Source: Candidatus Portnoybacteria bacterium (GTDB lineage: Bacteria > Patescibacteriota > Minisyncoccia > Portnoybacterales > GWB1-42-6). From it: a stretch of 64,000 nt of DNA. The notes beneath the pieces were generated by a model. That model was not told where the DNA came from. It ran no database searches and was given only the letters and a program-made list of their open reading frames with translations. Within the stretch, counting starts at the first letter, position 1. Each line of letters begins with the position of its first letter. The stretch spans positions 168,820 through 232,819 of the forward strand of contig JAQTYI010000001.1 of the NCBI GenBank assembly GCA_028688325.1, given 5' to 3'. Positions 1-61,286 of the stretch are shown piece after piece. The translations under genes and the position numbers were made by a program.

Positions 1-3000
1 GTGGAAGTGCCGAGTTTGAAAACATTATCCAAAGACGGATTGATGTCTCCGGCAAAAACCGCCGTGCCGCCATTTAAGATGCTCAAAAAAGTCGAGGTGG
101 CCGAAAGCGCGTCGGAAGAAGTGCCGATGTAAAAATTACCGCCTTGAGAGCTCAAAAACCAATGCTTGTCGTCGGCACCGGCCGAGTAGTCCGAAAGAAC
201 AAGCGAGGGACGCGTGCCGGAAATTTGCAATTTCCAATTGGGAGTGCTCGTGCCAATCCCCACATTCCCGTTGGCCGAAACCGTCAAAGTTGAAGTGGCC
301 TGCCAAGCCGAGTCCTGATAGGTCAAGGTCTGGCCTTGGGTGCCGACGGGCAAGGTGTCCACTCCTATTGTGAATAAAGTTGAGGTGCTCACCCATTCGG
401 TGGCCGAGCCGGTGGATTTGAGAATGTAGCCGTTGGCGCCGGCCGAAGACAAGCTGTCGTAGAGGCCGCCGGTCAGGGCGAAGTTGCCCGAGACCGAGAA
501 CTTCTGGTAAGGCGAGGAGGTGGCAACGCCGATGTTGCCGGTGTTGTTTATCGTCAGATAAGTTGAAGTGGCATTAAGCGCATCGGTGGAGGTGCCTATG
601 AAAAGATTGCCACCCATGGAAGAAAACAGCCAGTGCTTGTCGTTAATTCCGGCGGACATATCGGATAAAGCAAAAAATGTTTTGGTGGAAGAAGCGACCT
701 GAAAATTCCAGGCCGGAGTCGTTGTGCCAATCCCGATCGCTCCGGAAACATCAATTCTCATCCGCTCGGAGCCGCCGGTGAAAAACTTTAATTGGTCGTT
801 GTCCGCGCCGGCCGAATCTTCAGCCGTGATTTTTGTGTCCTGGTCAACATCAATCACTCCGCCCAGAGATCCCCAGGAGGAAGCGCCGTAGCCCTCAAAT
901 TGCTGGGTCTGTGAATTATAGCGAATAATGCCGCTGGTCAAAGAACCGGGCCGCTGGGCGGTGGTGCCCACGGGAATGACAAGGCCGTCTGTGGCGTCAA
1001 TATGCAAAGCGGTCTTGGGGGTGGTCGTGCCAACACCCAGATTTCCGCCGATAAGCGTTAAGTTTCCCCCCGACACCGCCAAGCCGGCTTTGGCCGAGAG
1101 CAGGCCAGAAAAAGAGCCGCCGGTGGCGGCAATGGAACCGGCGAAGGTGGAATCGGTGATGGTGGCGCCGGAGATAGCAACGCCGCTCAACTGATCAATT
1201 TTTTGCGACGACGACCAAGAATAAAAATTATTGGTGGTGTAAGAATTGCTCTGGGAGACGGCGGAACTTTGGCTGCTGCTGACCAGAGCCAAAATTTTTG
1301 TCTCCAGCGAAGCCATGTCGCTCGCCTTGGCATAGTCGCCGGGCGGCAAAACTTGCGTAATTTTTTCTATGCGCTGGACATACTGGATCGTTTGGCCATC
1401 CGGGCTGCCGACGATAATCGGCGGAAAACTCGGCTGCAACGCTTGCAATTTTTGCAAAGCGTTAATTTCGTCGTTCAAAGAAATGCTGAACTGCAATTCG
1501 TTCATTGTCACTTTTAGCTTATTGACTTCCCGGCGCATATCGTCGATGGCGATAAAATATTCTTTGTCGCCCGGCGACAAAGAGGGCATTGGCGGCGCAA
1601 CGGCGATGTGCCTGTAAAACAACGGGTCTATTTCCCGCGCCAATTGTCCGTAGTGGGTTAAATTATAAAAAACAAGAATGGCTTGGCGGCCCGCGCTGGT
1701 CGCGCTGTCGCCGGCGAATGCCAGGCCTTTGTTGATAATGCCGCCGAGATAATCCATCGCGTCCACCAAAACTTCGCCGGCGGCTTGCGGCCAAGAAACA
1801 ACCGGCTTCACCCCGTTCCAAACCGCCAGGCCGGTGTTGTTTATCGCGTCCCCGGATTTCTGGCTGATAACTAAATATTTGTCGTATGCCAGCGACGGCC
1901 ATTCCGTTATGCCGCCAAAAAAATTCCTGGCGGCCGAAGCTATTTTCAAGCTGGCGCGCGAAAAAATTTCTCCCAGATTATCTTTTGCCTGCTCGTTCTT
2001 TCTGTCCAAATTTAAATATGCGTCTTTCACGAAGGCCGGCCAGGCGGCGGCTCTGATTTCGATGTCGGCGATTTTATTTTGCGCGCCCTGGCCGGCCGAT
2101 GCGGTAAAGCCGGAAATGCTCCGTCCGGCTTCCTGAGCAAATTCAACTGCGGCCAAAGGCGCGTTCAAAATGTCGTTCAACAATAAATCCTGATTTTCAA
2201 CCGAACTGATGGAAACGGTCAATCGGCCAAACCGATGAACTGATGAATTGATGAACTGATGAATTGACTCGCCTGTTTGCTCCACCTGCCATGCTAATTC
2301 TTCTCCCGCGCCGGCCAAAGAATCGATTGCGCTCGCGCCGCCATCAACTAAAATCTCCGCTGAATTTTTTATTTCATTCTTAAATTTTTCTCCTTCTTTT
2401 TCATAAAGGCCCGCTTCGTTCTGTTCCTCCCTTTCGTAAAGGGAGGTTAGGAGGGATTTAGTATTCCATAAAACGCCGCTGATTTTTTCCGGTCCATCAA
2501 TAATTATCCTTCCCGCATTTTCCAGAACGGCTGCCGTCTTTTGAGTTATTGCTTCCTGCGCCTGCGGCAGAAACCAGGCGCCCGCCATCAGCAAAACCGT
2601 CAGCATTGCCAGCCGCAACGGCCTTAATTCCTCGCGGACCAGATGCGGCGCCACGCGCGCAATTTTCAACGCTTCTTCAAGCGCCTTGCATCTTAAATAA
2701 AATTTTATACAGGCCTCGCGCGATGCACCGGCGATTTTTTCAAAACCGGCGCCCAGCGCGGCCAGCGGCCAAAGCAGCGCCGCCAAGACCGCGAAGAAAA
2801 CTTTTCCACCCCCCTCCTTTAAATAAAGGAGGGGGGTGGAGGATTTAATTTCCTCCCTCCCCTGCAAAGGGTTCGCCTCGCTCTCGCGCAAGCGAGACGA
2901 GGAGGGTGGGGTGAGATTTAATTCTTGAACTTCCGCCGCTTCAATCTTTTTTTCACTGCCGCGTTTCTGCTCTTTGAAGTTTTGCACCCTCGCCAAATAT

Positions 3001-4018: not shown

Positions 4019-4070
4019 GATGTCCGACATCCCGGATATTAAGGATCCCAAACCCCGGATGTCGGACATC
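4019..4070. repeat. GATGTCCGACATC-type hairpin repeat.
   Basis: GATGTCCGACATC-CCGGATATTAAGGATCCCAAACCCCG-GATGTCGGACATC. Confidence 0.7.
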
Positions 4071-4517: not shown

Positions 4518-4613
4518 AAAAATACCCAAACAGCCATTCTATGCCCACACTATAAACATTGATAAAACATTTTTTAAACAACCATAAACATTCATACCAT
4601 TTTATCCTATTTT

Positions 4614-4697
4614 GATGTCCGACATCCCCCGCCTACGCCATACGGCTACGGCGGACAGGCAAATATTAATAATTTCTGATTTCGGATGTCGGACATC
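4614..4697. repeat. GATGTCCGACATC-type hairpin repeat (long loop).
   Basis: GATGTCCGACATC at 4614..4626 and GATGTCGGACATC at 4685..4697. Confidence 0.65.
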
Positions 4698-4867
4698 ATT
4701 AAATTATTCCCGCGGTTTTACCGCTCTTACCCCGCAAACCACCGTCTCGTATAACTTTGGACGCCCATTTTTTGACATTGAGTCATTGGGCATTCATTGG
4801 AAATTAGCCATTTGCCATTGGGATTTAAAAGCAAGAACGCGGGTTATTTTTATGATACTATTATACT

Positions 4868-16882: not shown

Positions 16883-16898
16883 AAATTACTTTAATAAC

Positions 16899-17052
16899 CG
16901 CGCATGGCAAAAATTTTATCAGAAAATAAAGTTGAGCCGAGTGTAAAATTTGCGTGCCGTGGTGGGGCCCCGACCGTCAGGTCGGGGCGTTGCGGATAGC
17001 AAATTTAGTGAGGCGAAACTTATATTTTCTTAAAATTTTATGCCCGCGCGGG
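16899..17052 (+). mobile_element. MITE-like repeat, family A, copy 1.
   Basis: About 150 bp with imperfect terminal inverted repeats CGCGCATGGCAAAAATTTT ... AAAATTTTATGCCCGCGCGG. The core hairpin is GGGGCCCCGACCGTCAGGTCGGGGCG. Highly similar to 44298..44448 and 56341..56492. Confidence 0.6.
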
Positions 17053-18674: not shown

Positions 18675-20405
18675 ATGCACATTAAGCTCCACCGAAAATT
18701 CTATAAGGTCTTCGGGCTGGCCGCGCTGGCCGCGCTTTTTATCGTTTGTCTATCGCTATCTGCGCTGGCTGCGGCAAATTATGAAAAAGCCATCGCCGGT
18801 TTGACAGTAAGCGGATTTAGGGTCGGCGGAACCGATAAGAACAAATTAAAAGAATTACTGGCCGCGCAAATTGTTGAATTCAACGACCAAAAATTTTCTC
18901 TTATTTACGGGGGGGAAACCTGGAATTTATCGCCGGACGACTTTGGCGTCAAAATAGATGCCGGCAAAACCGCCGCGGAGGCCTTAGCCGCCGGCCGGGG
19001 CCCCGCATTGACAGCGATGGCCGAGCAGATAAAAACGCTTTTTGCCGGCCGAGATCTGCCGCTCGCCTACTTCGTCAATTCGCCCAAATTTGACAGCGCC
19101 CTGGACATTTTTGCCAAGATAGAAACGCCGGTAAAAAATTCTTCTTTGAAATATGACGCTCAAAAAAATGATTTTGTCGTCTTGCCGGCCCAAAATGGAG
19201 TCGTTGTTGATAAAGAAAAGCTCCTTGCCGATATTTTAACGGCTTTCGGCAAACCGACGCAGAACATTTATCTGTCGCTAACAGAACAAAAAGCTTCGGT
19301 CAGCGAAAAAGAGATGGCGCAAATCGTTGCGCAAGCCGTAAAGATTGTTGATAACGCGCCGTATTTTTTGCAAAGCGCCGATTCCACCTGGCGCATAGAT
19401 AAATCCAACTTGACCGGTTGGATATCGGCCGCCCCTTCAAGCGATAACTCCGAAAAAGCGCTGCTGACTCTTGATACCGAACAAATAAGCGATTTCCTGA
19501 TACCTCTTTCGGCCTCCGTCAACCGCGAGCCGACAGACGCCAAGCTAACACTGGAAAACGGCGAATTGAAGTTTGCCATACTTTCCCGGGACGGCCAGAA
19601 ACTCAACATCGAAACCAGCGCCAAAAAAATAGCGGACGACATATTGGCTGGGAAAAAAAATATCTACCTGATAACCGATTCTGTTGAACCGAAAATTTCC
19701 AATTTTAATACCAAAGAGCTGGGACTGCTCACGCTGATAGGCAAGGGCGAATCAAATTTTTCCGGGTCCCCCGCCAACCGCCGCATTAACATAAAAGTGG
19801 GCGCCACCAAGCTCAACGGCTTCCTGATAAAACCGGGCGAGGAATTTTCTTTCTCGCAAAATATCGGCGACATCGACGCGCCAAACGGCTGGGTGCCGGA
19901 GTTAGTCATAAAAAACAGACAAACCATCCCGGAGTATGGCGGAGGTCTTTGCCAGATTTCCACCACTCTGTTTCGCGCCGCGATAAATTCCGGCCTGAAA
20001 ATAACCGAACGGCATCCGCATGCTTATCCTGTACACTATTACGATCCTCCGGGTTTTGACGCCACGGTCTATCCGCCAAACCCGGATCTGAAATTATTGA
20101 ACGACACGCCCGGTCATCTTCTTTTGCAGACCAAGATAGAGGGCAACAAATTAACTTTTGAAATATACGGCACGAACGACGGCCGGCAAGTCAAGGTCAA
20201 GGGGCCCTTCGCCACGCAGAAAAATCCCGACGGCTCCCTCAAGGCCACCCTGACCCAGGAGATCTGGCGCGACGGGCAACTGGAACGAAAACAAATATTC
20301 AATTCCAGCTACAACTCGCCCGCGCTTTACCCCAACCCCAACGCAACGCCGGCGCCAAGTCCGGCCCCGTCTTCTTCCCCTTCTATTCCGCCGGCCGCCA
20401 ATTGA
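18675..20405 (+). CDS. VanW family protein.
   Basis: N-terminal signal/transmembrane segment, followed by GGGLCQISTTLFRAAINSGLKITERHPHAYPVHYYDPPGFDATV. Confidence 0.8.
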   Translation: MHIKLHRKFYKVFGLAALAALFIVCLSLSALAAANYEKAIAGLTVSGFRVGGTDKNKLKELLAAQIVEFNDQKFSLIYGGETWNLSPDDFGVKIDAGKTAAEALAAGRGPALTAMAEQIKTLFAGRDLPLAYFVNSPKFDSALDIFAKIETPVKNSSLKYDAQKNDFVVLPAQNGVVVDKEKLLADILTAFGKPTQNIYLSLTEQKASVSEKEMAQIVAQAVKIVDNAPYFLQSADSTWRIDKSNLTGWISAAPSSDNSEKALLTLDTEQISDFLIPLSASVNREPTDAKLTLENGELKFAILSRDGQKLNIETSAKKIADDILAGKKNIYLITDSVEPKISNFNTKELGLLTLIGKGESNFSGSPANRRINIKVGATKLNGFLIKPGEEFSFSQNIGDIDAPNGWVPELVIKNRQTIPEYGGGLCQISTTLFRAAINSGLKITERHPHAYPVHYYDPPGFDATVYPPNPDLKLLNDTPGHLLLQTKIEGNKLTFEIYGTNDGRQVKVKGPFATQKNPDGSLKATLTQEIWRDGQLERKQIFNSSYNSPALYPNPNATPAPSPAPSSSPSIPPAAN

Positions 20406-20546
20406 TTTTTTTAAGCATACCGGGCGCTAAAAAACACCGTAATTTGCGGTGTTTTTTAGCGCTGTTGTGCCGAGGGGGAGATTTGCCCCGTAGAAATTTG
20501 CCACGCAAATTAACGGGGTAAAAACTCCTCGTACAAAAAATAAACT

Positions 20547-20631
20547 TGGTGGGGACGGAGAGAGTCGAACTCTCATGGATTGCTCCACATGGTCCTAAGC
20601 CATGCGCGTCTGCCAGTTCCGCCACATCCCC
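20547..20631 (-). tRNA. tRNA-Leu (anticodon TAG).
   Basis: Acceptor stem GGGGATG/CGTCCCC with an encoded CCA, anticodon stem-loop CATGG-CTTAGGA-CCATG, long variable arm. Confidence 0.8.
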
Positions 20632-20896
20632 GCACTTTGTGCGATTGCCAACTTGTCCCGTGATTGCGCAAAGCGCAATTTTACGGGATTTCGCCACCTC
20701 GGCCTCTTCTAAATTTAACCTTTTATGACCTCGAAAAGCAAGATGCTAAAGCCCCTGCCCCGTTAGAAGTTTTTAACTGGACGCTATTTTAGAACATGTA
20801 AAGCCGCCCACTTCGCTCTCGCTTCAACGAGGCGAGCAGGCGAAATCGCGCAGTTTTTTGGATAAAAACAGCATACAGAGGAACTTCTCTACGGGG

Positions 20897-20925
20897 TTGA
20901 CAGCATATTGTCAAAGGTGTATAAT
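20897..20925 (+). promoter_or_regulatory. Consensus sigma-70 promoter (TTGACA, 17-nt spacer, TATAAT).
   Basis: Exact -35 and -10 hexamers with a 17-nt spacer. Confidence 0.7.
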
Positions 20926-20954
20926 ATATAATCCTGACAATGGCTCTATCTAAG

Positions 20955-21063
20955 CCCCCACACCCGATCCAGCAATATTTCCTGATTTTCAGAAAGGCAA
21001 GGCGAAGCCGTTTTACTTGGCTTGCGCGCCCTTGGAGGTGCATTATTTGATCGGGTGTGGGGG
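20955..21063 (+). ncRNA. 109-nt structured leader or small RNA closed by a perfect 15-bp stem.
   Basis: CCCCCACACCCGATC ... GATCGGGTGTGGGGG encloses about 80 nt that contain an internal imperfect hairpin. It lies just downstream of the consensus promoter and about 145 nt upstream of the SPFH gene. Confidence 0.4.
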
Positions 21064-21207
21064 TAAACCAAAATCGGATCTTGGACAGAACTTTAAAAAT
21101 CGAAAAGGGACATAATCCCCTTTCTCAACATATATACCAATTGAGTATGCACTTTTTAGTGCTCAAGAATATACAACTAAAATGATTATATTGAAAAAGG
21201 AGGAGTT

Positions 21208-22296
21208 ATGAAAAAAATTAGGGTCTTTTTATCAAGGATTGATTACTGTCTTAGAAGTATCCCGGGGTGGCTCGGGATGGCCAAGCAATCTTTTCAAGGA
21301 ATATTCCCGAGGGAAAAAAAGCATTATGCCATCGAATTGATCTTTATCTCAATTCTTATTTTTTGCTCTTGGCGATTCGTTGAATTAAGATGGGGGTTTG
21401 CAGCATTAGGTGCTGCCTGGGCGGTTTTCTGCATAAAGATTATCGGGCCGACGGAAAAAGCCATCGGCATTTTCCTGGGCGAACCGTCGCGAGAACTCAC
21501 CTCCGGAATAAGATTTATCTTTTGGCCGCTGGAAAAATTAGCGATCTATCCGACCAAACAACAAGAAGTGGAACTGAATCTTATCGAGGTCATCACCAAA
21601 AAAGTAGGAAGAGCACATAGCTCGGCGGCAATAACGATAAAGCCGACTTTCTATTTCTTTTGGCCGGACAAATTTGAGAAGTTAAAACAAGCGCTGGAAA
21701 AAGGCGCCAATCCCGATAAAGATTCCGTCAAAGACCTCTTCCAAGAAGCAATCTTTAATGCCTTGCGTTCCGTGATTATCCAATATGATTGGGAAACCTG
21801 TTATTCGGAAAGAGATAAAATCACGCAAGAGGTGTTAGGGATTCTTTGCTGTTCGGGCCCCATTCAGGCGGCCGGCATAGAGAAAGAGCAAATGTTTCTG
21901 GCTATAGAAGTTTTTTTACCAAAAGACCTGGTTGCAAACATCAACGCCCCGGAAATTGCTGCGCTTAAAGCCGCCGCCAAAAAAGAAGAAGCTGAAGGAG
22001 AAAAAGCGTTCGCCATCGCCCAAAAACAAGCGGAGGCGGAAGGGCGTAAACTGGTTTTTGCCAGCATCGGAGACGAAATGGCCAAAGAAGCGTTATTTAC
22101 GCTTCGCGAAATGGCCAAGGGCACCAGCAATACGATCCTGTTCGGACTGCCGCCGGAACTCTATGAAACGGTCAAGGCGGCTACGCGCGGTGCGGACATA
22201 GATGTTGATCATCTGCTTAAAGTACTCACGAAAGAGCAAAAAAAGAAAATCGTTGAGGCGATAGCCAATCTCGGAAAGAAAGGAGATACGACATGA
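21208..22296 (+). CDS. SPFH/band-7 domain protein.
   Basis: N-terminal transmembrane segment, a band-7-like core, and a C-terminal Ala/Glu-rich coiled coil. GGAGG precedes the start. Confidence 0.55.
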   Translation: MKKIRVFLSRIDYCLRSIPGWLGMAKQSFQGIFPREKKHYAIELIFISILIFCSWRFVELRWGFAALGAAWAVFCIKIIGPTEKAIGIFLGEPSRELTSGIRFIFWPLEKLAIYPTKQQEVELNLIEVITKKVGRAHSSAAITIKPTFYFFWPDKFEKLKQALEKGANPDKDSVKDLFQEAIFNALRSVIIQYDWETCYSERDKITQEVLGILCCSGPIQAAGIEKEQMFLAIEVFLPKDLVANINAPEIAALKAAAKKEEAEGEKAFAIAQKQAEAEGRKLVFASIGDEMAKEALFTLREMAKGTSNTILFGLPPELYETVKAATRGADIDVDHLLKVLTKEQKKKIVEAIANLGKKGDTT

Positions 22297-23048
22297 ACGA
22301 GCTGTTAAATTATGCATTGATAACACTGGCTATGATAGTGATAGCCGCCAAAGTCATCCAGGCGGTAAAGGTCAAGATTCCCAGCGTTAACTGGAAATGG
22401 AGCATACCGGTTCAGGCCGCCGCCGCCATCTCCTTGATGACAATCATCTGCTTATTCACTTTTCAAAAAGAATTGGTAGAACTTTGGCATAGCAGTAAAT
22501 CGACAATAGTCGTGATAATTGCCGCGGCCATAGGATTGCTTATCGGGGGCGACTCGCTAAAAACCATAAATGTGTGCAGAAAAATCGCGCTTATCGTTCT
22601 TATTGTGACGATCGCCTACTTCGGAGCGAAGCCCAAGTGGTTTAGCCCCGCCAACCCGCCTCCCAACCTGTCCTCTGCCGCCGCTCAAGGCCAAATATCG
22701 GCGAGGATAACCGGCTTCAACACGGAGCTGCCGGCCGAAGCCAAGTTGGCCGCGAAAGTGACACCAGGCCAGATCGTCTGGGCCATCAGAGAACGGATGG
22801 AGCTGCCGGCGCCGGAACTCTGGATAAAAAATCTTAACTCCGGCGAAGTCAGACAGCAGAAAGCGTGGCCCGACGGACTGAAAAACCGCGAGCTGCAAAA
22901 CACGATCGGCAACAATGTAGAGATCTACGCCGTTCCGCTGCCGGACGGACAAAATGTTCCGATAATTTCTTACACCCGGCCAACGGTTAACCGGCTGGCA
23001 CAAACAGAAAATGAGCAGCCGCATCTGCTGCTCAATGTAGTGAATTAG
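22293..23048 (+). CDS. Hypothetical membrane protein, translationally coupled to the SPFH gene.
   Basis: ATGA start/stop overlap with the upstream gene; several transmembrane helices. Confidence 0.5.
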   Translation: MNELLNYALITLAMIVIAAKVIQAVKVKIPSVNWKWSIPVQAAAAISLMTIICLFTFQKELVELWHSSKSTIVVIIAAAIGLLIGGDSLKTINVCRKIALIVLIVTIAYFGAKPKWFSPANPPPNLSSAAAQGQISARITGFNTELPAEAKLAAKVTPGQIVWAIRERMELPAPELWIKNLNSGEVRQQKAWPDGLKNRELQNTIGNNVEIYAVPLPDGQNVPIISYTRPTVNRLAQTENEQPHLLLNVVN

Positions 23049-35444: not shown

Positions 35445-35472
35445 TTAACTCAACTTTGACCCGCTATCTTTT

Positions 35473-35544
35473 GGGCGTGTAGCTCAATGGTAGAGCACGA
35501 AGCTTATACCTTCGCGGTTCTAGGTTCGAATCCTAGCGCGCCCA
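35473..35544 (+). tRNA. tRNA with anticodon TAT (Ile-UAU type), flanked by a perfect 15-bp leader/trailer inverted repeat.
   Basis: Acceptor stem GGGCGTG/CGCGCCC, anticodon stem-loop CGAAG-CTTATAC-CTTCG, T-loop TTCGAAT. The flanks are GACCCGCTATCTTTT and AAAAGATAGCGGGTC. Confidence 0.6.
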
Positions 35545-35774
35545 CCCCAAAAGATAGCGGGTCAAAGCATAGCGCTGGTTCTGGGCCCGCCCTGTTAGAA
35601 ATTATTGAATAGCTTATTTTCACGCTAAAATTTATTCTGGAAATAGCTTGTTTTATTAGATTAGAAATTACTTTATAATTTCTAACAGGGTGAAAATCAT
35701 AGCGCGCGCACCGCGTAAAACCCCGCCTTAGCGGGGTCACGCAGCGCAGCCCCGTAAAAAATTAACAAAAATTT

Positions 35775-38694: not shown

Positions 38695-38802
38695 CCGCGT
38701 AAAATGATGAGCGAAGCGAATAATTTTACGCGCGCCGTGATAGCGAGCGTAGCGAGCTATTTTACGGGGCCGACATTATTTTTCCGCTCATCACCACGCG
38801 GC
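38695..38802 (+). ncRNA. Conserved nested-hairpin element 3' of tRNA-Phe (homologous to 9521..9625).
   Basis: CCGCGTAAAATGATGAGCG ... CGCTCATCACCACGCGG forms the outer stem; an inner stem ends in ATTTTACGGGG. Confidence 0.4.
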
Positions 38803-40478: not shown

Positions 40479-40504
40479 TATATGATTATTATTGCTTCCT
40501 AGAC

Positions 40505-40666
40505 CGCCCATACGAAAAATGACAATTTATTGTCATCCCGAACGAAGTGAGGGATCTCTGGCGAATGCCAGACCTGTTGCGCGGATCTCCGCCTAACGGC
40601 GGATCCCACGAGATCCCTCGCTACGCTCGGGACGACACTTCATGTCGACTTTATCATCGCGCGAGG
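40505..40666 (+). mobile_element. MITE-like repeat, family B, copy 1.
   Basis: About 160 bp, bounded by CCGCCCATACGAAAAAT ... TTTATCATCGCGCGAGG. The internal long hairpin is TCCCGAACGAAGTGAGGGATCTC / GAGATCCCTCGCTACGCTCGGGA. It is 90% identical to 61126..61286. The track ORF MRDLWRMPDLLRGSPP here is a translation of the repeat. Confidence 0.6.
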
Positions 40667-44275: not shown

Positions 44276-44297
44276 AACGAGTTGTGCTTTAATTTAC

Positions 44298-44448
44298 CGC
44301 GCATACGAAAAATTTTGATAGAAAATAGCAATGAGCCGAGCGTCTAAATTTGCGTGCTGTGGCGGGGCCCCGACCGTCAGGTCGGGGCGTTGAGGATAGC
44401 AAATTTAGCGAGGCGAGTTCTATTTTCTCAAAATTTTATCGTCGCGCG
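44298..44448 (+). mobile_element. MITE-like repeat, family A, copy 2.
   Basis: CGCGCATACGAAAAATTTT ... AAAATTTTATCGTCGCGCGG with the core hairpin GGGGCCCCGACCGTCAGGTCGGGGCG. Confidence 0.6.
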
Positions 44449-44623
44449 GGAACTCTTTTGCTACTTTTCTGGTTACAGAAAAGTAGATGAGATAATACTA
44501 TGCGAATTGAACCTGGATTCCCGCTTTCGCGGGAATGACAAATCAAGCTATAAACTATACCAAGAAGCTCACCATCAACCCCGTAAAATCCCGCTACGCG
44601 GGACCACGGGGCAAGCAACGCCG

Positions 44624-49185: not shown

Positions 49186-49204
49186 ATCATTTAAAAAAGT
49201 TTAT

Positions 49205-49337
49205 TCCGACATCCGATGTCCCAAATATTGGGCATTTTGCACCCAGGACATCGGATGTCGGAATATTGAATTTAATCTGTCGACATCCGACGACCTAAAA
49301 TTCAGAATTCTTTAATATTCGGGTTGTCGGATGTCGA
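49205..49337. repeat. Two tandem copies of the GATGTCCGACATC-type hairpin repeat.
   Basis: CCGACATCCGATGTCC-(24 nt)-GGACATCGGATGTCGG, followed by TCGACATCCGACGACC-(31 nt)-TTGTCGGATGTCGA. The first loop contains CAAATATTGGGCATT. Confidence 0.7.
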
Positions 49338-51616: not shown

Positions 51617-51838
51617 TGGTCGGGCCGCGGGGACTCGAACCCCGACTAAATCCCCCCGCCCCGCACCAAAAATTTACTGTCGGGGCACTGGGAATTGAAC
51701 CCAGTCTACATCCTCCCGAAGGATGCGTACTACCGGTATACGATGCCCCGGTGATTTTGGTGCGGGGTAAAAAGGACTCGCCTGCCCCGTTGTCGCCAAG
51801 GGCGACTTTTCGGGGTGCTACCATTACACTACGGCCCG
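51617..51838 (-). other. Split tRNA-like sequence: a tRNA 5' half (acceptor and D arm) and a tRNA 3' half (T arm, acceptor, CCA) whose acceptor strands pair with each other, separated by about 170 nt that contain a complete tRNA-Pro.
   Basis: The 5' part, CGGGCCGTAGTGTAATGGTAGCAC, lies at 51815..51838 on the minus strand. The 3' part, GTCGGGGTTCGAGTCCCCGCGGCCCGACCA, lies at 51617..51646. The acceptor strands CGGGCCG and CGGCCCG are complementary. Confidence 0.4.
51680..51750 (-). tRNA. tRNA-Pro (anticodon CGG), flanked by a 14-bp leader/trailer stem.
   Basis: Acceptor stem CGGGGCA/TGCCCCG with the C1:G72 pair, anticodon stem-loop CATCC-TTCGGGA-GGATG, T-loop TTCAATT. The flanks are CCCCGCACCAAAAT and ATTTTGGTGCGGGG. 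Confidence 0.75.
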
Positions 51839-56325: not shown

Positions 56326-56340
56326 GGATTGTATTTAACA

Positions 56341-56492
56341 CGCGCATACGAAAAATTTTGCCAGAAAATAGCAACGAGCCGAGCGTCTAAATTTGCGTGC
56401 TGTGGTGGGGCCCCGATCGTCAGGTCGGGGCGTTGCGGATAGCAAATTTAGTGAGACGAGTTCTATTTTCTCAAAATTTTATCGTCGCGCGG
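56341..56492 (+). mobile_element. MITE-like repeat, family A, copy 3.
   Basis: CGCGCATACGAAAAATTTT ... AAAATTTTATCGTCGCGCGG with the same core as the other two copies. Confidence 0.6.
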
Positions 56493-57361: not shown

Positions 57362-57370
57362 TTAAATGGC

Positions 57371-57423
57371 GATGTCCGACATCCAAAGATTAAAACGCAT
57401 TAATATTCGGGATGTCGGACATC
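57371..57423. repeat. GATGTCCGACATC-type hairpin repeat.
   Basis: GATGTCCGACATC-(27 nt, containing AATATTCGG)-GATGTCGGACATC. Confidence 0.7.
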
Positions 57424-57435
57424 GTAAAATTGGTA

Positions 57436-61125: not shown

Positions 61126-61286
61126 CCGCCCATACGAAAAATAACAATTTATTGTCCTCCCGAACGAAGTGAGAGATCTCTGGCGAATGCCAGACCCGTT
61201 GCGCGGATCTCCGCCTGATGGCGGATCCCGCGAGATCCCTCGCTACGCTCGGGACGACACTTCGTGTCGATTTTATCGTCGGGCGG
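61126..61286 (+). mobile_element. MITE-like repeat, family B, copy 2.
   Basis: CCGCCCATACGAAAAAT ... TTTTATCGTCGGGCGG; the interior is 90% identical to 40505..40666. Confidence 0.6.

What the first reader, a model, noticed from the sequence alone, without database searches (positions are those of the whole stretch)
20897..21207. Textbook sigma-70 promoter driving a 109-nt perfect-stem hairpin ahead of an SPFH membrane-protein operon
Seen in sequence: TTGACA, a 17-nt spacer, then TATAAT. About 30 nt later a 15-bp perfect stem (CCCCCACACCCGATC / GATCGGGTGTGGGGG) encloses roughly 80 nt with an internal hairpin. A further 145 nt carries two small hairpins before the GGAGG-ATG of the SPFH gene, which is translationally coupled to a membrane protein.

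Inference: a long structured 5' UTR of riboswitch, thermometer or attenuator type, or an independent small RNA sharing the promoter. Consensus promoters are otherwise rare in this window.
Basis: seen in the sequence. Interest (0 to 1): 0.55.

Follow-up and report, generated by a model that had tools for sequence, protein, structure and literature searches.

The report
Inserted hairpin element in SPFH leader
The big perfect hairpin behind the textbook promoter is real, but it is a recent lineage-specific insertion (a small inverted-repeat, transposon-like element) into an otherwise conserved promoter and 5' leader of a Portnoybacteria (CPR) operon, not a conserved riboswitch or small RNA.

Summary
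This includes a 12/12 sigma-70 promoter, the only one in 64 kb. It also includes a perfect 15-bp stem (20955-20969 / 21049-21063) enclosing 79 nt, followed by 144 nt to the GGAGG-ATG of an SPFH gene. That gene overlaps a membrane-protein gene.

Seven homologous leaders from other Portnoybacteria keep the promoter, and those that extend far enough keep the rest of the leader. Six of them lack the hairpin entirely. One of these six is 96.9% identical in the DNA just upstream.

The seventh (L019) carries a different insert at exactly the same spot. Its first 23 nt match the reverse complement of this element's right end at 20 positions, so it lies in the opposite orientation.

The insert has:
- perfect terminal inverted repeats
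- an imperfect 6-bp flanking direct repeat (TAAGCC/TAAACC)
- 52% GC, against 34% for the leader
- an interior no more structured than shuffled sequence
- no U-tract after the stem
- no Rfam or tRNA match

No further copy was found anywhere I could search.

Best reading: a MITE-like mobile insertion carried as a passenger in the 5' UTR. The conserved part of the leader has a plausible anti-SD/anti-anti-SD switch. Interest is modest.

The parts
20897..20925 (+). Consensus sigma-70-type promoter: TTGACA, 17 nt, TATAAT. It belongs to the ancestral leader. The transcription start is inferred at about 20932.
   Evidence: Scores 12/12. It is unique in the window. It is present once, at the homologous place, in every relative locus.
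20933..20956 (+). 5' domain of the conserved leader. It holds the P1 5' arm CCTGA (20933-20937) and small hairpin HP1, TGGCT 20941-20945 pairing with AGCC 20953-20956.
   Evidence: The RNAalifold consensus and pair counts on the insert-deleted leaders support P1 and HP1. P1 is paired in 96% of cells with one compensatory pair, and HP1 in 89%.
20951..20956 (.). Left copy of the flanking direct repeat, TAAGCC. It is the native target sequence and is present in five of the six empty sites.
   Evidence: A 5/6 match to 21064-21069 has P = 0.0046 by chance at fixed positions.
20955..21063 (.). The inserted element, 109 bp from repeat end to repeat end. The segment absent from relatives is 113 bp (20957-21069); the exact junction is ambiguous by a few bases. 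The perfect 15-bp terminal inverted repeats lie at 20955-20969 and 21049-21063, around a 79-bp interior.
   Evidence: Perfect inverted repeat. Absent from L001, L003, L011, L012, L018 and L020. A related terminus sits at the same site in L019. GC is 52% against 34% for the leader. The interior is not structured. No Rfam or tRNA hit.
21064..21069 (.). Right copy of the flanking direct repeat, TAAACC. It is a possible target-site duplication with one mismatch.
   Evidence: The empty site in L018 reads TTAAACTGAAAATC, so which copy carries the change is uncertain.
21070..21207 (+). Remainder of the conserved leader:
- P1 3' arm TCGG, 21074-21077
- conserved single-stranded TTGGACAGAACTTTAAAAA, 21081-21099
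- HP3, GAAAAGGGA 21102-21110 pairing with TCCCCTTTC 21116-21124
- candidate anti-SD TCCCCTTTCTCAA, 21116-21128
- HP4, GCACT 21149-21153 pairing with AGTGC 21158-21162
- SD region TTGAAAAAGGAGG, 21191-21203
   Evidence: Conserved in the six other leaders that extend past the insertion site (alignments A3 and A7). The anti-SD:SD duplex scores -11 to -17 kcal/mol, against -9 to -11 for HP3, in the five leaders tested. Cells are 95% and 89% paired respectively, with no double compensatory change in either helix.
21208..22296 (+). SPFH/Band_7 gene, 362 aa.
   Evidence: Pfam PF01145, E = 2.3e-15. Identical to an NCBI protein of a Ca. Portnoybacteria MAG.
22293..23048 (+). 251-aa membrane protein. 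Its start overlaps the SPFH stop codon (ATGA).
   Evidence: Four hydrophobic segments and the overlap sequence. No Pfam family.

Best explanation
The hairpin is a small non-coding DNA insertion bounded by perfect 15-bp terminal inverted repeats. It is a MITE-like, probably mobile, element. It landed in the 5' leader of the SPFH operon in the lineage of this Portnoybacteria genome, immediately 3' of the first small leader hairpin (after TAAGCC).

The consensus promoter and the rest of the leader are ancestral and drive the operon, so the element is simply co-transcribed. Because its two ends pair perfectly, it folds back on itself as a closed side-branch at the P1/HP1 junction. This leaves the conserved downstream leader free to fold as in relatives. 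That downstream part includes a candidate switch in which UCCCCUUUCUCAA pairs either with GAAAAGGGA or with the Shine-Dalgarno region.

The element's effect on expression is most likely neutral or modest. One possibility is a 15-16-bp double-stranded RNA target for RNase III that alters the mRNA 5' end or its stability.

Shown: it is an insertion. It has terminal repeats and a flanking near-repeat. It is absent from close relatives. A related terminus occupies the same site in a second lineage.

Inferred: transposition as the mechanism, transcription from the promoter, and any effect at the RNA level.
For: 1. Presence/absence. Six homologous leaders read TAAGCC|AAAATC(G)GG, or a near variant, with nothing in between: L001, L003, L011, L012, L018 and L020. 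The window has 113 extra nt there. L001 is 96.9% identical over the 2.5 kb just upstream, so the difference is recent.

2. Second lineage. L019 has an insertion at exactly the same point. It begins CCCCCACACCTAATCTAATAATG, which is 20/23 identical to the reverse complement of the window element's right end, so it lies in the opposite orientation. Its interior is otherwise unrelated. L020, whose leader is most similar to L019's, has an empty site. Shared termini, different interiors and two orientations together are the pattern of a transposable family. The L019 contig also ends inside the element.

3. Anatomy. The terminal repeats are a perfect 15 bp. A 5/6 direct repeat, TAAGCC/TAAACC, abuts them (P about 0.005). 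GC is 52% against 34% in the leader. There is no coding capacity.

4. No sign of an evolved RNA. Both strands fold equally well. The interior has z = -0.1 and -0.9. There is no Rfam hit at E <= 10, no tRNA and no U-tract after the stem.

5. Context. This lineage has mobile repeats bounded by inverted repeats. A roughly 155-nt family with pairing ends occurs 5 times in the window. It also occurs once in L016, at a site that is empty in the window. In addition, two other segments bounded by inverted repeats, around and after tRNA-Ile(UAU), are absent from the three relatives fetched, whose FtsH is 98%, 93% and 87% identical.
Against: - No second full copy of this element was found. I searched the 64-kb window, about 190 kb of related loci, JGI metagenome contigs, 185,579 species-representative genomes (2 chance hits), IMG/VR, and plasmids and phages. 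Those collection scans needed exact repeat matches, however. The rest of this 788-kb genome could not be searched.
- The flanking repeat is imperfect and the junction is ambiguous.
- No transposase with matching ends is known.
- Only 51 nt of the L019 element are visible.
- Occupation of the same site in two lineages could also mean an old insertion with several precise losses.
Confidence: 0.7

Rival explanations
1. The hairpin is a functional RNA module of the leader, kept by selection. It could be an RNase III processing site, a stabiliser, or a lineage-specific expansion that tunes the anti-SD switch. It may have originated from a mobile element and been exapted.
For: - It is placed so that it folds as a closed branch at the P1/HP1 junction without disrupting the conserved helices.
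- The stem is still perfect while the flanking repeat has a mismatch.
- The same leader position is occupied in a second lineage.
- Other leaders carry variable hairpins about 10 nt downstream, and L011 carries a separate insert of about 175 nt rich in hairpins. The leader therefore tolerates, or even recruits, hairpins.
- Correia elements in Neisseria are known to be bound or cleaved by RNase III and to affect neighbouring genes (PMC2649163).
Against: - It is absent from the closest relatives, which keep the operon.
- The interior is not structured beyond chance.
- The strands fold symmetrically.
- No covariation data are available.
- It lies 144 nt from the SD.
Confidence: 0.12
2. The element is an old resident of this site that has been lost precisely several times, for example by slippage between the flanking short repeats. 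It was also flipped in situ by recombination between its inverted repeats. On this reading there were not two independent insertions.
For: - The same site is occupied in two divergent leader subtypes, the window and L019.
- The two copies lie in opposite orientations, as expected from inversion mediated by the inverted repeats.
- L020's empty site reads AAGCCCCAAATC, with two extra C, which could be a footprint.
- Palindromes flanked by direct repeats are known to be prone to deletion (general knowledge).
Against: - It needs at least 3-4 independent precise losses, against 2 gains.
- The interiors of the two elements are unrelated beyond 23 nt.
- The window repeats are perfect, which suggests youth.
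Confidence: 0.08
3. It is an independent small stable RNA gene flanked by a processing (leader-trailer) stem and transcribed from the strong promoter. This would parallel the tRNAs in this window that sit inside long leader-trailer helices.
For: - Three of the 13 tRNAs in the window have long leader-trailer duplexes: Ile-UAU at -30.6, Pro-CGG at -32.5 and Ser-UGA at -22.4 kcal/mol.
- They enclose 70-83 nt, the same architecture and size as here.
- Consensus promoters often drive stable RNAs.
Against: - The promoter pre-dates the hairpin and drives the leader in relatives that lack it.
- The interior has no significant fold.
- There is no Rfam or tRNA match.
- No homologue was found anywhere.
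- The tRNA-Ile stem is itself lineage-specific.
Confidence: 0.05
4. It is an invertible DNA switch (inverton). A recombinase flips the 79-bp segment between the inverted repeats and so changes leader function.
For: - Perfect 15-bp inverted repeats flank a short segment between the promoter and the gene.
- A related element in L019 lies in the opposite orientation.
Against: - 79 bp between the sites is very short for recombinase synapsis (general knowledge).
- Neither orientation contains a convincing promoter or terminator.
- The whole segment, not just one orientation, is missing in relatives.
- No invertase was looked for or seen next to it.
Confidence: 0.03

Closest known systems
Correia repeat-enclosed elements (CREE/NEMIS) of Neisseria, and similar small bacterial MITEs (RUP, ERIC/IRU, BOX)
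   Same: These are non-coding elements of about 100-150 bp bounded by terminal inverted repeats. They show presence/absence differences between close strains and are often inserted between a promoter and a gene. There they are co-transcribed and fold into a long hairpin in the mRNA. For CREE, the hairpin can be bound or cleaved by RNase III and can alter expression (PMC2649163, abstract). The features of RUP, ERIC and BOX are from my own knowledge.
   Different: CREE has 26-bp repeats, a TA duplication, an IHF site and hundreds of copies per genome (from my own knowledge). Here the repeats are 15 bp with an unrelated sequence. The flanking repeat is an imperfect 6-mer. Only one full and one partial copy are known. 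The host is a CPR bacterium with a genome of at least 0.79 Mb (contig length). The element appears tied to one specific leader site.
Riboswitches, RNA thermometers and attenuators (structured 5' UTR regulators)
   Same: It lies in a long 5' UTR behind a strong promoter. The conserved part of this leader has mutually exclusive pairings that could hide or free the SD.
   Different: The hairpin itself is not conserved, has no aptamer-like structured interior, is not followed by a U-tract and does not touch the SD. There is no Rfam match.
Leader-trailer processing helices around rRNAs, and here around some tRNAs
   Same: A long perfect helix formed by the sequences flanking an RNA-sized segment of 70-80 nt. 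Such helices around rRNA are described across bacteria (PMC11404451, abstract).
   Different: No recognisable RNA gene lies inside. The helix is not conserved in relatives.
The ~155-nt multi-copy repeat family with pairing ends in the same genome (model R1)
   Same: It is an intergenic element whose GC-rich ends pair to close a structured unit. It shows an insertion polymorphism between relatives.
   Different: The covariance model of that family does not detect the SPFH-leader element at E <= 10. That family has 5 copies in 64 kb and covarying interior helices, whereas this element has neither.

Membership tests
MITE (miniature inverted-repeat transposable element) | Terminal inverted repeats at both ends | tested here: met
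   A perfect 15-bp repeat, 20955-20969 with 21049-21063.
MITE (miniature inverted-repeat transposable element) | Small size and no transposase or other coding capacity | tested here: met
   109-113 bp. The only ORFs crossing it are a 36-codon frame whose start codon is not conserved (reading) and an 84-aa antisense ORF with no Pfam hit.
MITE (miniature inverted-repeat transposable element) | Target-site duplication flanking the repeats | tested here: inconclusive
   TAAGCC and TAAACC abut the element, a 5/6 match with P about 0.005. The match is imperfect. The junction can be drawn in several ways, giving a 3-, 4- or 6-bp repeat.
MITE (miniature inverted-repeat transposable element) | Presence/absence polymorphism at orthologous sites (empty sites in relatives) | tested here: met
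   Six empty sites: L001, L003, L011, L012, L018 and L020.
MITE (miniature inverted-repeat transposable element) | Several related copies sharing termini | tested here: inconclusive
   One further, partial, copy with 20/23 identical terminal bases, in another lineage (L019). No other copy was found in the window, the loci or the public collections. Apart from the 64-kb window and short flanks, the 788-kb genome was not searchable.
MITE (miniature inverted-repeat transposable element) | A cognate autonomous element whose transposase recognises the same ends | not testable with these tools
   It would need a DNA search of whole Portnoybacteria genomes for the termini flanking a transposase gene.
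Riboswitch / cis-regulatory leader RNA (the hairpin itself) | Conservation of the element upstream of orthologous genes | tested here: not met
   Absent from 6 of 7 homologous leaders.
Riboswitch / cis-regulatory leader RNA (the hairpin itself) | Match to a described RNA family | tested here: not met
   No Rfam 15 match over 20955-21063 at E <= 10 on either strand, and none at gathering score.
Riboswitch / cis-regulatory leader RNA (the hairpin itself) | Structured ligand-binding core beyond the closing stem | tested here: not met
   The interior 20970-21048 has z = -0.10 on the + strand and -0.91 on the - strand, against shuffles.
Intrinsic terminator / transcription attenuator | GC-rich stem followed directly by a U-tract | tested here: not met
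   The stem is followed by TAAACCAAAATCGG on the + strand and by CTTAGATAGAGCC on the - strand. The scanner does not call it.
tRNA or tRNA-like gene inside a leader-trailer helix | Cloverleaf detectable in the enclosed segment | tested here: not met
   ARAGORN finds none at default thresholds, nor at 95%, 85% and 75% of them.
Invertible promoter/segment (inverton) | Both orientations present in the population, and a nearby invertase | not testable with these tools
   It needs read-level data from SRR22315507. The neighbouring genes are PrsW, HSP20, VanW, SPFH, T4SS pilins and a solute-binding protein.
The ~155-nt repeat family of this genome (model R1) | Match to the family covariance model | tested here: not met
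   cmsearch with R1 over the window and 11 loci gives no hit at 20955-21063 at E <= 10.

The most novel reading that the evidence does not exclude
The element could belong to an undescribed family of very small mobile hairpin elements in CPR bacteria that target a specific structured site. That site is the 3' foot of the first hairpin of this conserved leader, occupied in two lineages in opposite orientations. The element may have been co-opted as a variable RNA 'expansion' that tunes an SD-sequestering switch. More broadly, this genome may carry a class of roughly 110-bp cassettes bounded by inverted repeats, one of which encloses a replacement tRNA-Ile(UAU).
Probability: 0.12. Interest if true: 0.6.

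Novelty: new member of a known kind. Interest (0 to 1): 0.3.

Why it matters
The result guards against a tempting misreading. A consensus promoter followed by a perfect long hairpin looks like a regulatory RNA or sRNA, but comparison with relatives shows the hairpin is a recent passenger insertion.

It also records small, probably mobile, inverted-repeat elements in a reduced CPR genome. A library search that combined the phrases 'miniature inverted-repeat transposable' and 'Candidate Phyla Radiation' returned one paper, on an unrelated topic.

Finally, it exposes a genuinely conserved module in Portnoybacteria: the promoter plus a leader with anti-SD potential. This module precedes different cargo genes in different lineages. 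It is the better candidate for experimental study of gene regulation in these uncultured bacteria.

Tried and rejected
Rejected identities
- Known RNA family. Rfam at gathering score over the whole window, and at E <= 10 over 20400-21400, gave nothing at the hairpin.
- tRNA or tmRNA. ARAGORN found nothing at default or relaxed thresholds.
- Terminator or attenuator. There is no U-tract.
- Conserved upstream small ORF. The 36-codon frame from ATG 20942 has its start replaced by TTG or CTG in L012 and L003. Its length also varies (my reading).
- Member of the 155-nt repeat family. It was not detected by model R1.

Searches for further copies that found nothing
- The window with up to 3 mismatches.
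- blastn-short against the window and all loci.
- A regex search for the terminus.
- JGI metagenome contigs with the repeat pair.
- GTDB species genomes. The two hits, in a Phycisphaeraceae and a Prevotella genome, are unrelated by eye.
- IMG/VR.
- Plasmids and phages by blastn.

Other dead ends
- The genome-contig search with the SPFH protein found no relative, so this genome is apparently not in that collection.
- Three SPFH homologue contigs were too short or had no DNA.
- L014 was a chance match of the leader pattern inside a coding region.
- The literature searches found nothing on MITEs in CPR, nothing on tRNA leader-trailer helices in Patescibacteria, and nothing relevant on Portnoybacteria.

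Full report
**Observation**

The window comes from a Candidatus Portnoybacteria (CPR/Patescibacteria) MAG, GCA_028710785.1, contig JAQTTM010000001.1 of 788,852 bp.

- Promoter. TTGACA (20897-20902), a 17-nt spacer and TATAAT (20920-20925) score 12/12. It is the only exact consensus promoter in 64 kb, against 0.04 expected.
- Stem. A perfect 15-bp inverted repeat starts 29 nt after the -10 box. Its arms, 20955-20969 and 21049-21063, enclose 79 nt.
- Stability. The 121-nt stretch folds at -54.4 kcal/mol, z = -5.26.
- Downstream. Another 144 nt, with two small hairpins, lead to GGAGG and the ATG at 21208.
- Genes. The gene at 21208 encodes an SPFH/Band_7 protein. Its stop overlaps (ATGA) the start of a 251-aa protein with four hydrophobic segments.

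The description is therefore accurate, with three caveats.

1. The opposite strand folds equally well (-52.6 kcal/mol, z = -5.09).
2. The 79-nt interior alone is no more stable than shuffles (z = -0.10 and -0.91). All the signal comes from the terminal inverted repeat.
3. Long perfect inverted repeats are abundant in this window: 30 with arms of at least 12 bp, against about 1 expected.

**What it is not**

- Rfam 15 has no match at the hairpin, either at gathering score or at E <= 10 on both strands.
- ARAGORN finds no tRNA or tmRNA there, even at 75% of its thresholds.
- The stem is followed by TAAACCAAAATCGG, not a U-tract, so it is not an intrinsic terminator or attenuator.
- The 36-codon frame that starts at ATG 20942 is not conserved. 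Its start codon is TTG or CTG in two relatives, and its length varies (reading).

**Comparative evidence**

I collected seven homologous leaders by three routes:
- SPFH homologues and their contigs
- a metagenome scan with a conserved leader pattern
- VanW neighbours

The seven are L001, L003, L011, L012, L018, L019 and L020. All sit in the same synteny: PrsW, HSP20, VanW, tRNA-Leu, in some an extra PaaX-like gene, then the leader, the operon and the T4SS pilins.

All eight leaders have the 12/12 promoter. All seven that extend past the insertion site have a recognisably conserved leader (alignments A3 and A7).

Six of the seven relatives read TAAGCC|AAAATC(G)GG, or a close variant, with nothing in between. 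The window has 113 extra nt (20957-21069) at that point.

L001 is a very close relative. The 2.5 kb covering the end of PrsW, HSP20 and VanW is 96.9% identical in DNA. The segment from tRNA-Leu through SPFH to the pilins is only 72-86% identical. The hairpin therefore lies in a fast-changing island and is a recent difference.

**A second occupied site**

L019 (JGI 3300025150) belongs to a different leader subtype. The leader most similar to it, L020, has an empty site. L019 has an insertion at exactly the same position.

After TTTTTAAGCC it continues CCCCCACACCTAATCTAATAATGGC..., until the contig ends 51 nt later.

These first 23 nt match the reverse complement of the window element's right end (CCCCCACACCCGATCAAATAATG) at 20 positions. 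They match the left-end subterminal sequence much less well, and beyond 23 nt the two elements are unrelated.

So there are two elements with homologous termini and different interiors. They sit at the same target in opposite orientations, in two lineages whose nearest sampled relatives have empty sites. This is what a family of small elements mobilised through their ends looks like. A contig that breaks inside the element is also typical of a repeat, although that point is weak.

**Anatomy of the insert**

- The terminal repeats are a perfect 15 bp.
- Directly outside them lie TAAGCC (20951-20956) and TAAACC (21064-21069). This is a 5/6 direct repeat, with P about 0.005 at fixed positions.
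- The junction can be drawn in several ways. The empty site in L018 reads TTAAACTG, so I treat the target-site duplication as suggestive only.
- The insert has 52% G+C, against 34% for the surrounding leader.

**Copies elsewhere**

I found none in any of the following:
- the window
- about 190 kb of related loci
- JGI metagenome contigs
- one genome per GTDB species, where two hits appeared, about the number expected by chance and unrelated on inspection
- IMG/VR
- plasmids and phages

The collection scans need exact matches to the repeats. The remaining ~720 kb of this genome is not in the collections I could scan. The multi-copy criterion for a MITE is therefore untested rather than failed.

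**Context in the same genome**

The lineage clearly has mobile repeats bounded by inverted repeats.

A family of about 155 nt has ends that pair (CCGCGC.ACGAAAAAT with ATTTTATCGT.CGCGCGG). Its interior helices covary: 18 of 57 predicted pairs show changes on both sides. It occurs five times in the window. It occurs once in L016 between two genes whose spacer in the window is empty. Diverged copies occur in L016 and L019. Its covariance model does not detect the SPFH-leader element, so the two are separate families.

The tRNA-Ile(UAU) at 35472-35547 sits in a perfect 22-bp leader-trailer helix. It is followed by another segment bounded by a 16-bp repeat (35590-35690). Both features are missing in three relatives whose FtsH is 98%, 93% and 87% identical. 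Their tRNA-Ile has different acceptor and anticodon stems. A remnant of that ancestral tRNA 3' end survives in the window at 35699-35720.

**The conserved leader**

I removed the window insert and a separate insert of about 175 nt in L011, then compared the leaders. They share the following features:
- a short P1 helix (CCUGA with UCGG) enclosing HP1 (UGGCU with AGCCA)
- a variable hairpin in some lineages
- a conserved single-stranded UUGGACAGAACUUUAAAAA
- HP3 (GAAAAGGGA with UCCCCUUUC)
- HP4, whose stem varies with two compensatory pairs
- the SD

The 3' arm of HP3, extended to UCCCCUUUCUCAA, is also complementary to UUGAAAAAGGAGG, which overlaps the SD. That duplex scores -11 to -17 kcal/mol in the five leaders tested, against -9 to -11 for HP3. 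Cells are 95% paired for the anti-SD:SD helix and 89% for HP3.

Both helices are almost invariant, or change only through wobble pairs. The switch between an anti-SD and an anti-anti-SD pairing is therefore a reasonable hypothesis, not a demonstrated structure.

In L012 and L020 the same promoter, leader, SD and ATG precede different genes (239-241 aa, then 182-183 aa, and in L020 also 358 aa) instead of SPFH. The leader thus behaves as a portable expression module.

The window insert sits in the P1/HP1 junction. Because its ends pair perfectly, it forms a closed side-branch there, which probably explains why it is tolerated. P1 is somewhat weaker in the window than in L001, at 4 against 7 pairs (my reading).

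**Mechanism I commit to (confidence 0.7)**

A small non-autonomous element bounded by terminal inverted repeats inserted next to HP1 of the ancestral leader. It is co-transcribed from the ancestral consensus promoter and folds on itself. It is neutral or mildly modulatory, for instance as an RNase III substrate. This would resemble the Correia elements of Neisseria (PMC2649163).

The insertion, the termini and the polymorphism are shown. The transposition chemistry, the transcription and any RNA-level effect are inferred.

**Rivals**

- An exapted RNA module (0.12).
- An old insertion with repeated precise loss and in-situ inversion (0.08).
- A stable small RNA inside a processing stem (0.05).
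- An inverton (0.03).

**Verdict**

A structured, probably regulatory, leader exists, but the hairpin is not part of it. The hairpin is a new member of a known kind (a MITE-like insertion) in an unusual host. Interest is modest.

Noticed in passing
window 35454-35567 (tRNA-Ile(UAU) at 35472-35547), 35590-35690 and 35699-35720; L015 6842-6915; L016 11894-11966; L017 11855-11927: tRNA-Ile with the rare UAU anticodon sits inside a perfect 22-bp leader-trailer inverted repeat (duplex -30.6 kcal/mol). Relatives whose FtsH is 98%, 93% and 87% identical lack the helix, and their tRNA-Ile has a different acceptor and anticodon stem. The window keeps a remnant of that ancestral tRNA 3' end (CATAGCGCGCGCACCGCGTAAAA) downstream of a second, AU-rich segment bounded by a 16-bp repeat, which is absent from L015. 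It looks like replacement of a tRNA gene by a cassette bounded by inverted repeats.
   Followed up: partly
window 51659-51767 (tRNA-Pro CGG, - strand) and 8274-8361 (tRNA-Ser UGA, - strand): Two more tRNAs have long leader-trailer duplexes, at -32.5 and -22.4 kcal/mol. The other ten tRNAs in the window do not. Whether relatives conserve them was not checked.
   Followed up: no
window 16898-17051, 40504-40664, 44297-44449, 56340-56492, 61126-61286; L016 3640-3797; L013 8302-8455; weaker hits at L016 11964-12102 and L019 3245-3389: A multi-copy structured repeat of about 155 nt, not in Rfam. Its ends pair (CCGCGC.ACGAAAAAT with ATTTTATCGT.CGCGCGG), and 18 of 57 predicted pairs show compensatory changes. 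A terminator-like hairpin follows it. The L016 copy lies between the solute-binding-protein and methyltransferase genes, where the window has none, so the element is mobile or polymorphic. It could be a new MITE or a new RNA family of Portnoybacteria.
   Followed up: partly
window 20932-20956 plus 21070-21207; L001 3819-4004; L003 3804-4004; L011 698-1063 (-); L012 3985-4191; L018 6990-7127; L020 6948-7160: A conserved promoter and leader module, with a candidate anti-SD (UCCCCUUUCUCAA) and anti-anti-SD (GAAAAGGGA) switch. In L012 and L020 it precedes non-SPFH genes (239-241 aa, then 182-183 aa, and in L020 also 358 aa). L011 carries a separate insert of about 175 nt, rich in hairpins, between HP4 and the SD.
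   Followed up: partly
window 20547-20631 (- strand), compared with L001 about 2690-2775 (+), L003, L018 and L019 (+), and L020 (-): The tRNA-Leu(UAG) segment between VanW and the leader is inverted in the window and in L020, relative to L001, L003, L018 and L019. The surrounding DNA is otherwise syntenic.
   Followed up: no
L001 2885-2930 and 3620-3655; L019 6880-6915 and 7640-7680; L011 1386-2060 (-): Some relatives have an extra PaaX-like regulator gene between tRNA-Leu and the leader. It is flanked on both sides by a palindromic motif of about 40 bp (ATTACTTATTATCACCGCATATACGGCATTAATAAGTAAT), probably its operator. The gene is absent from the window.
   Followed up: no
window 4019-4070, 4613-4698, 49202-49265, 57370-57424; L016 11830-11885: A palindromic motif, GGATGTCGGACATCC, recurs as inverted pairs in several intergenic regions. 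In L016 it also occurs upstream of tRNA-Ile. It could be a repeated operator or a REP-like element.
   Followed up: no
window 9523-9560, 38697-38740; L015 6916-6955: Several tRNAs are followed by a shared hairpin trailer, GCGTAAAAT(T/G)ATGAGCG(A/T)AGCGAATAA(A)TTTACGC. It weakly matches model R1, which suggests a wider family of related hairpin units.
   Followed up: no
window 21208-21381: The SPFH protein here has 362 aa, against 313-321 aa in its relatives. Its first 58 or so codons do not align with L001 at the DNA level, so the N-terminus is lineage-specific.
   Followed up: no
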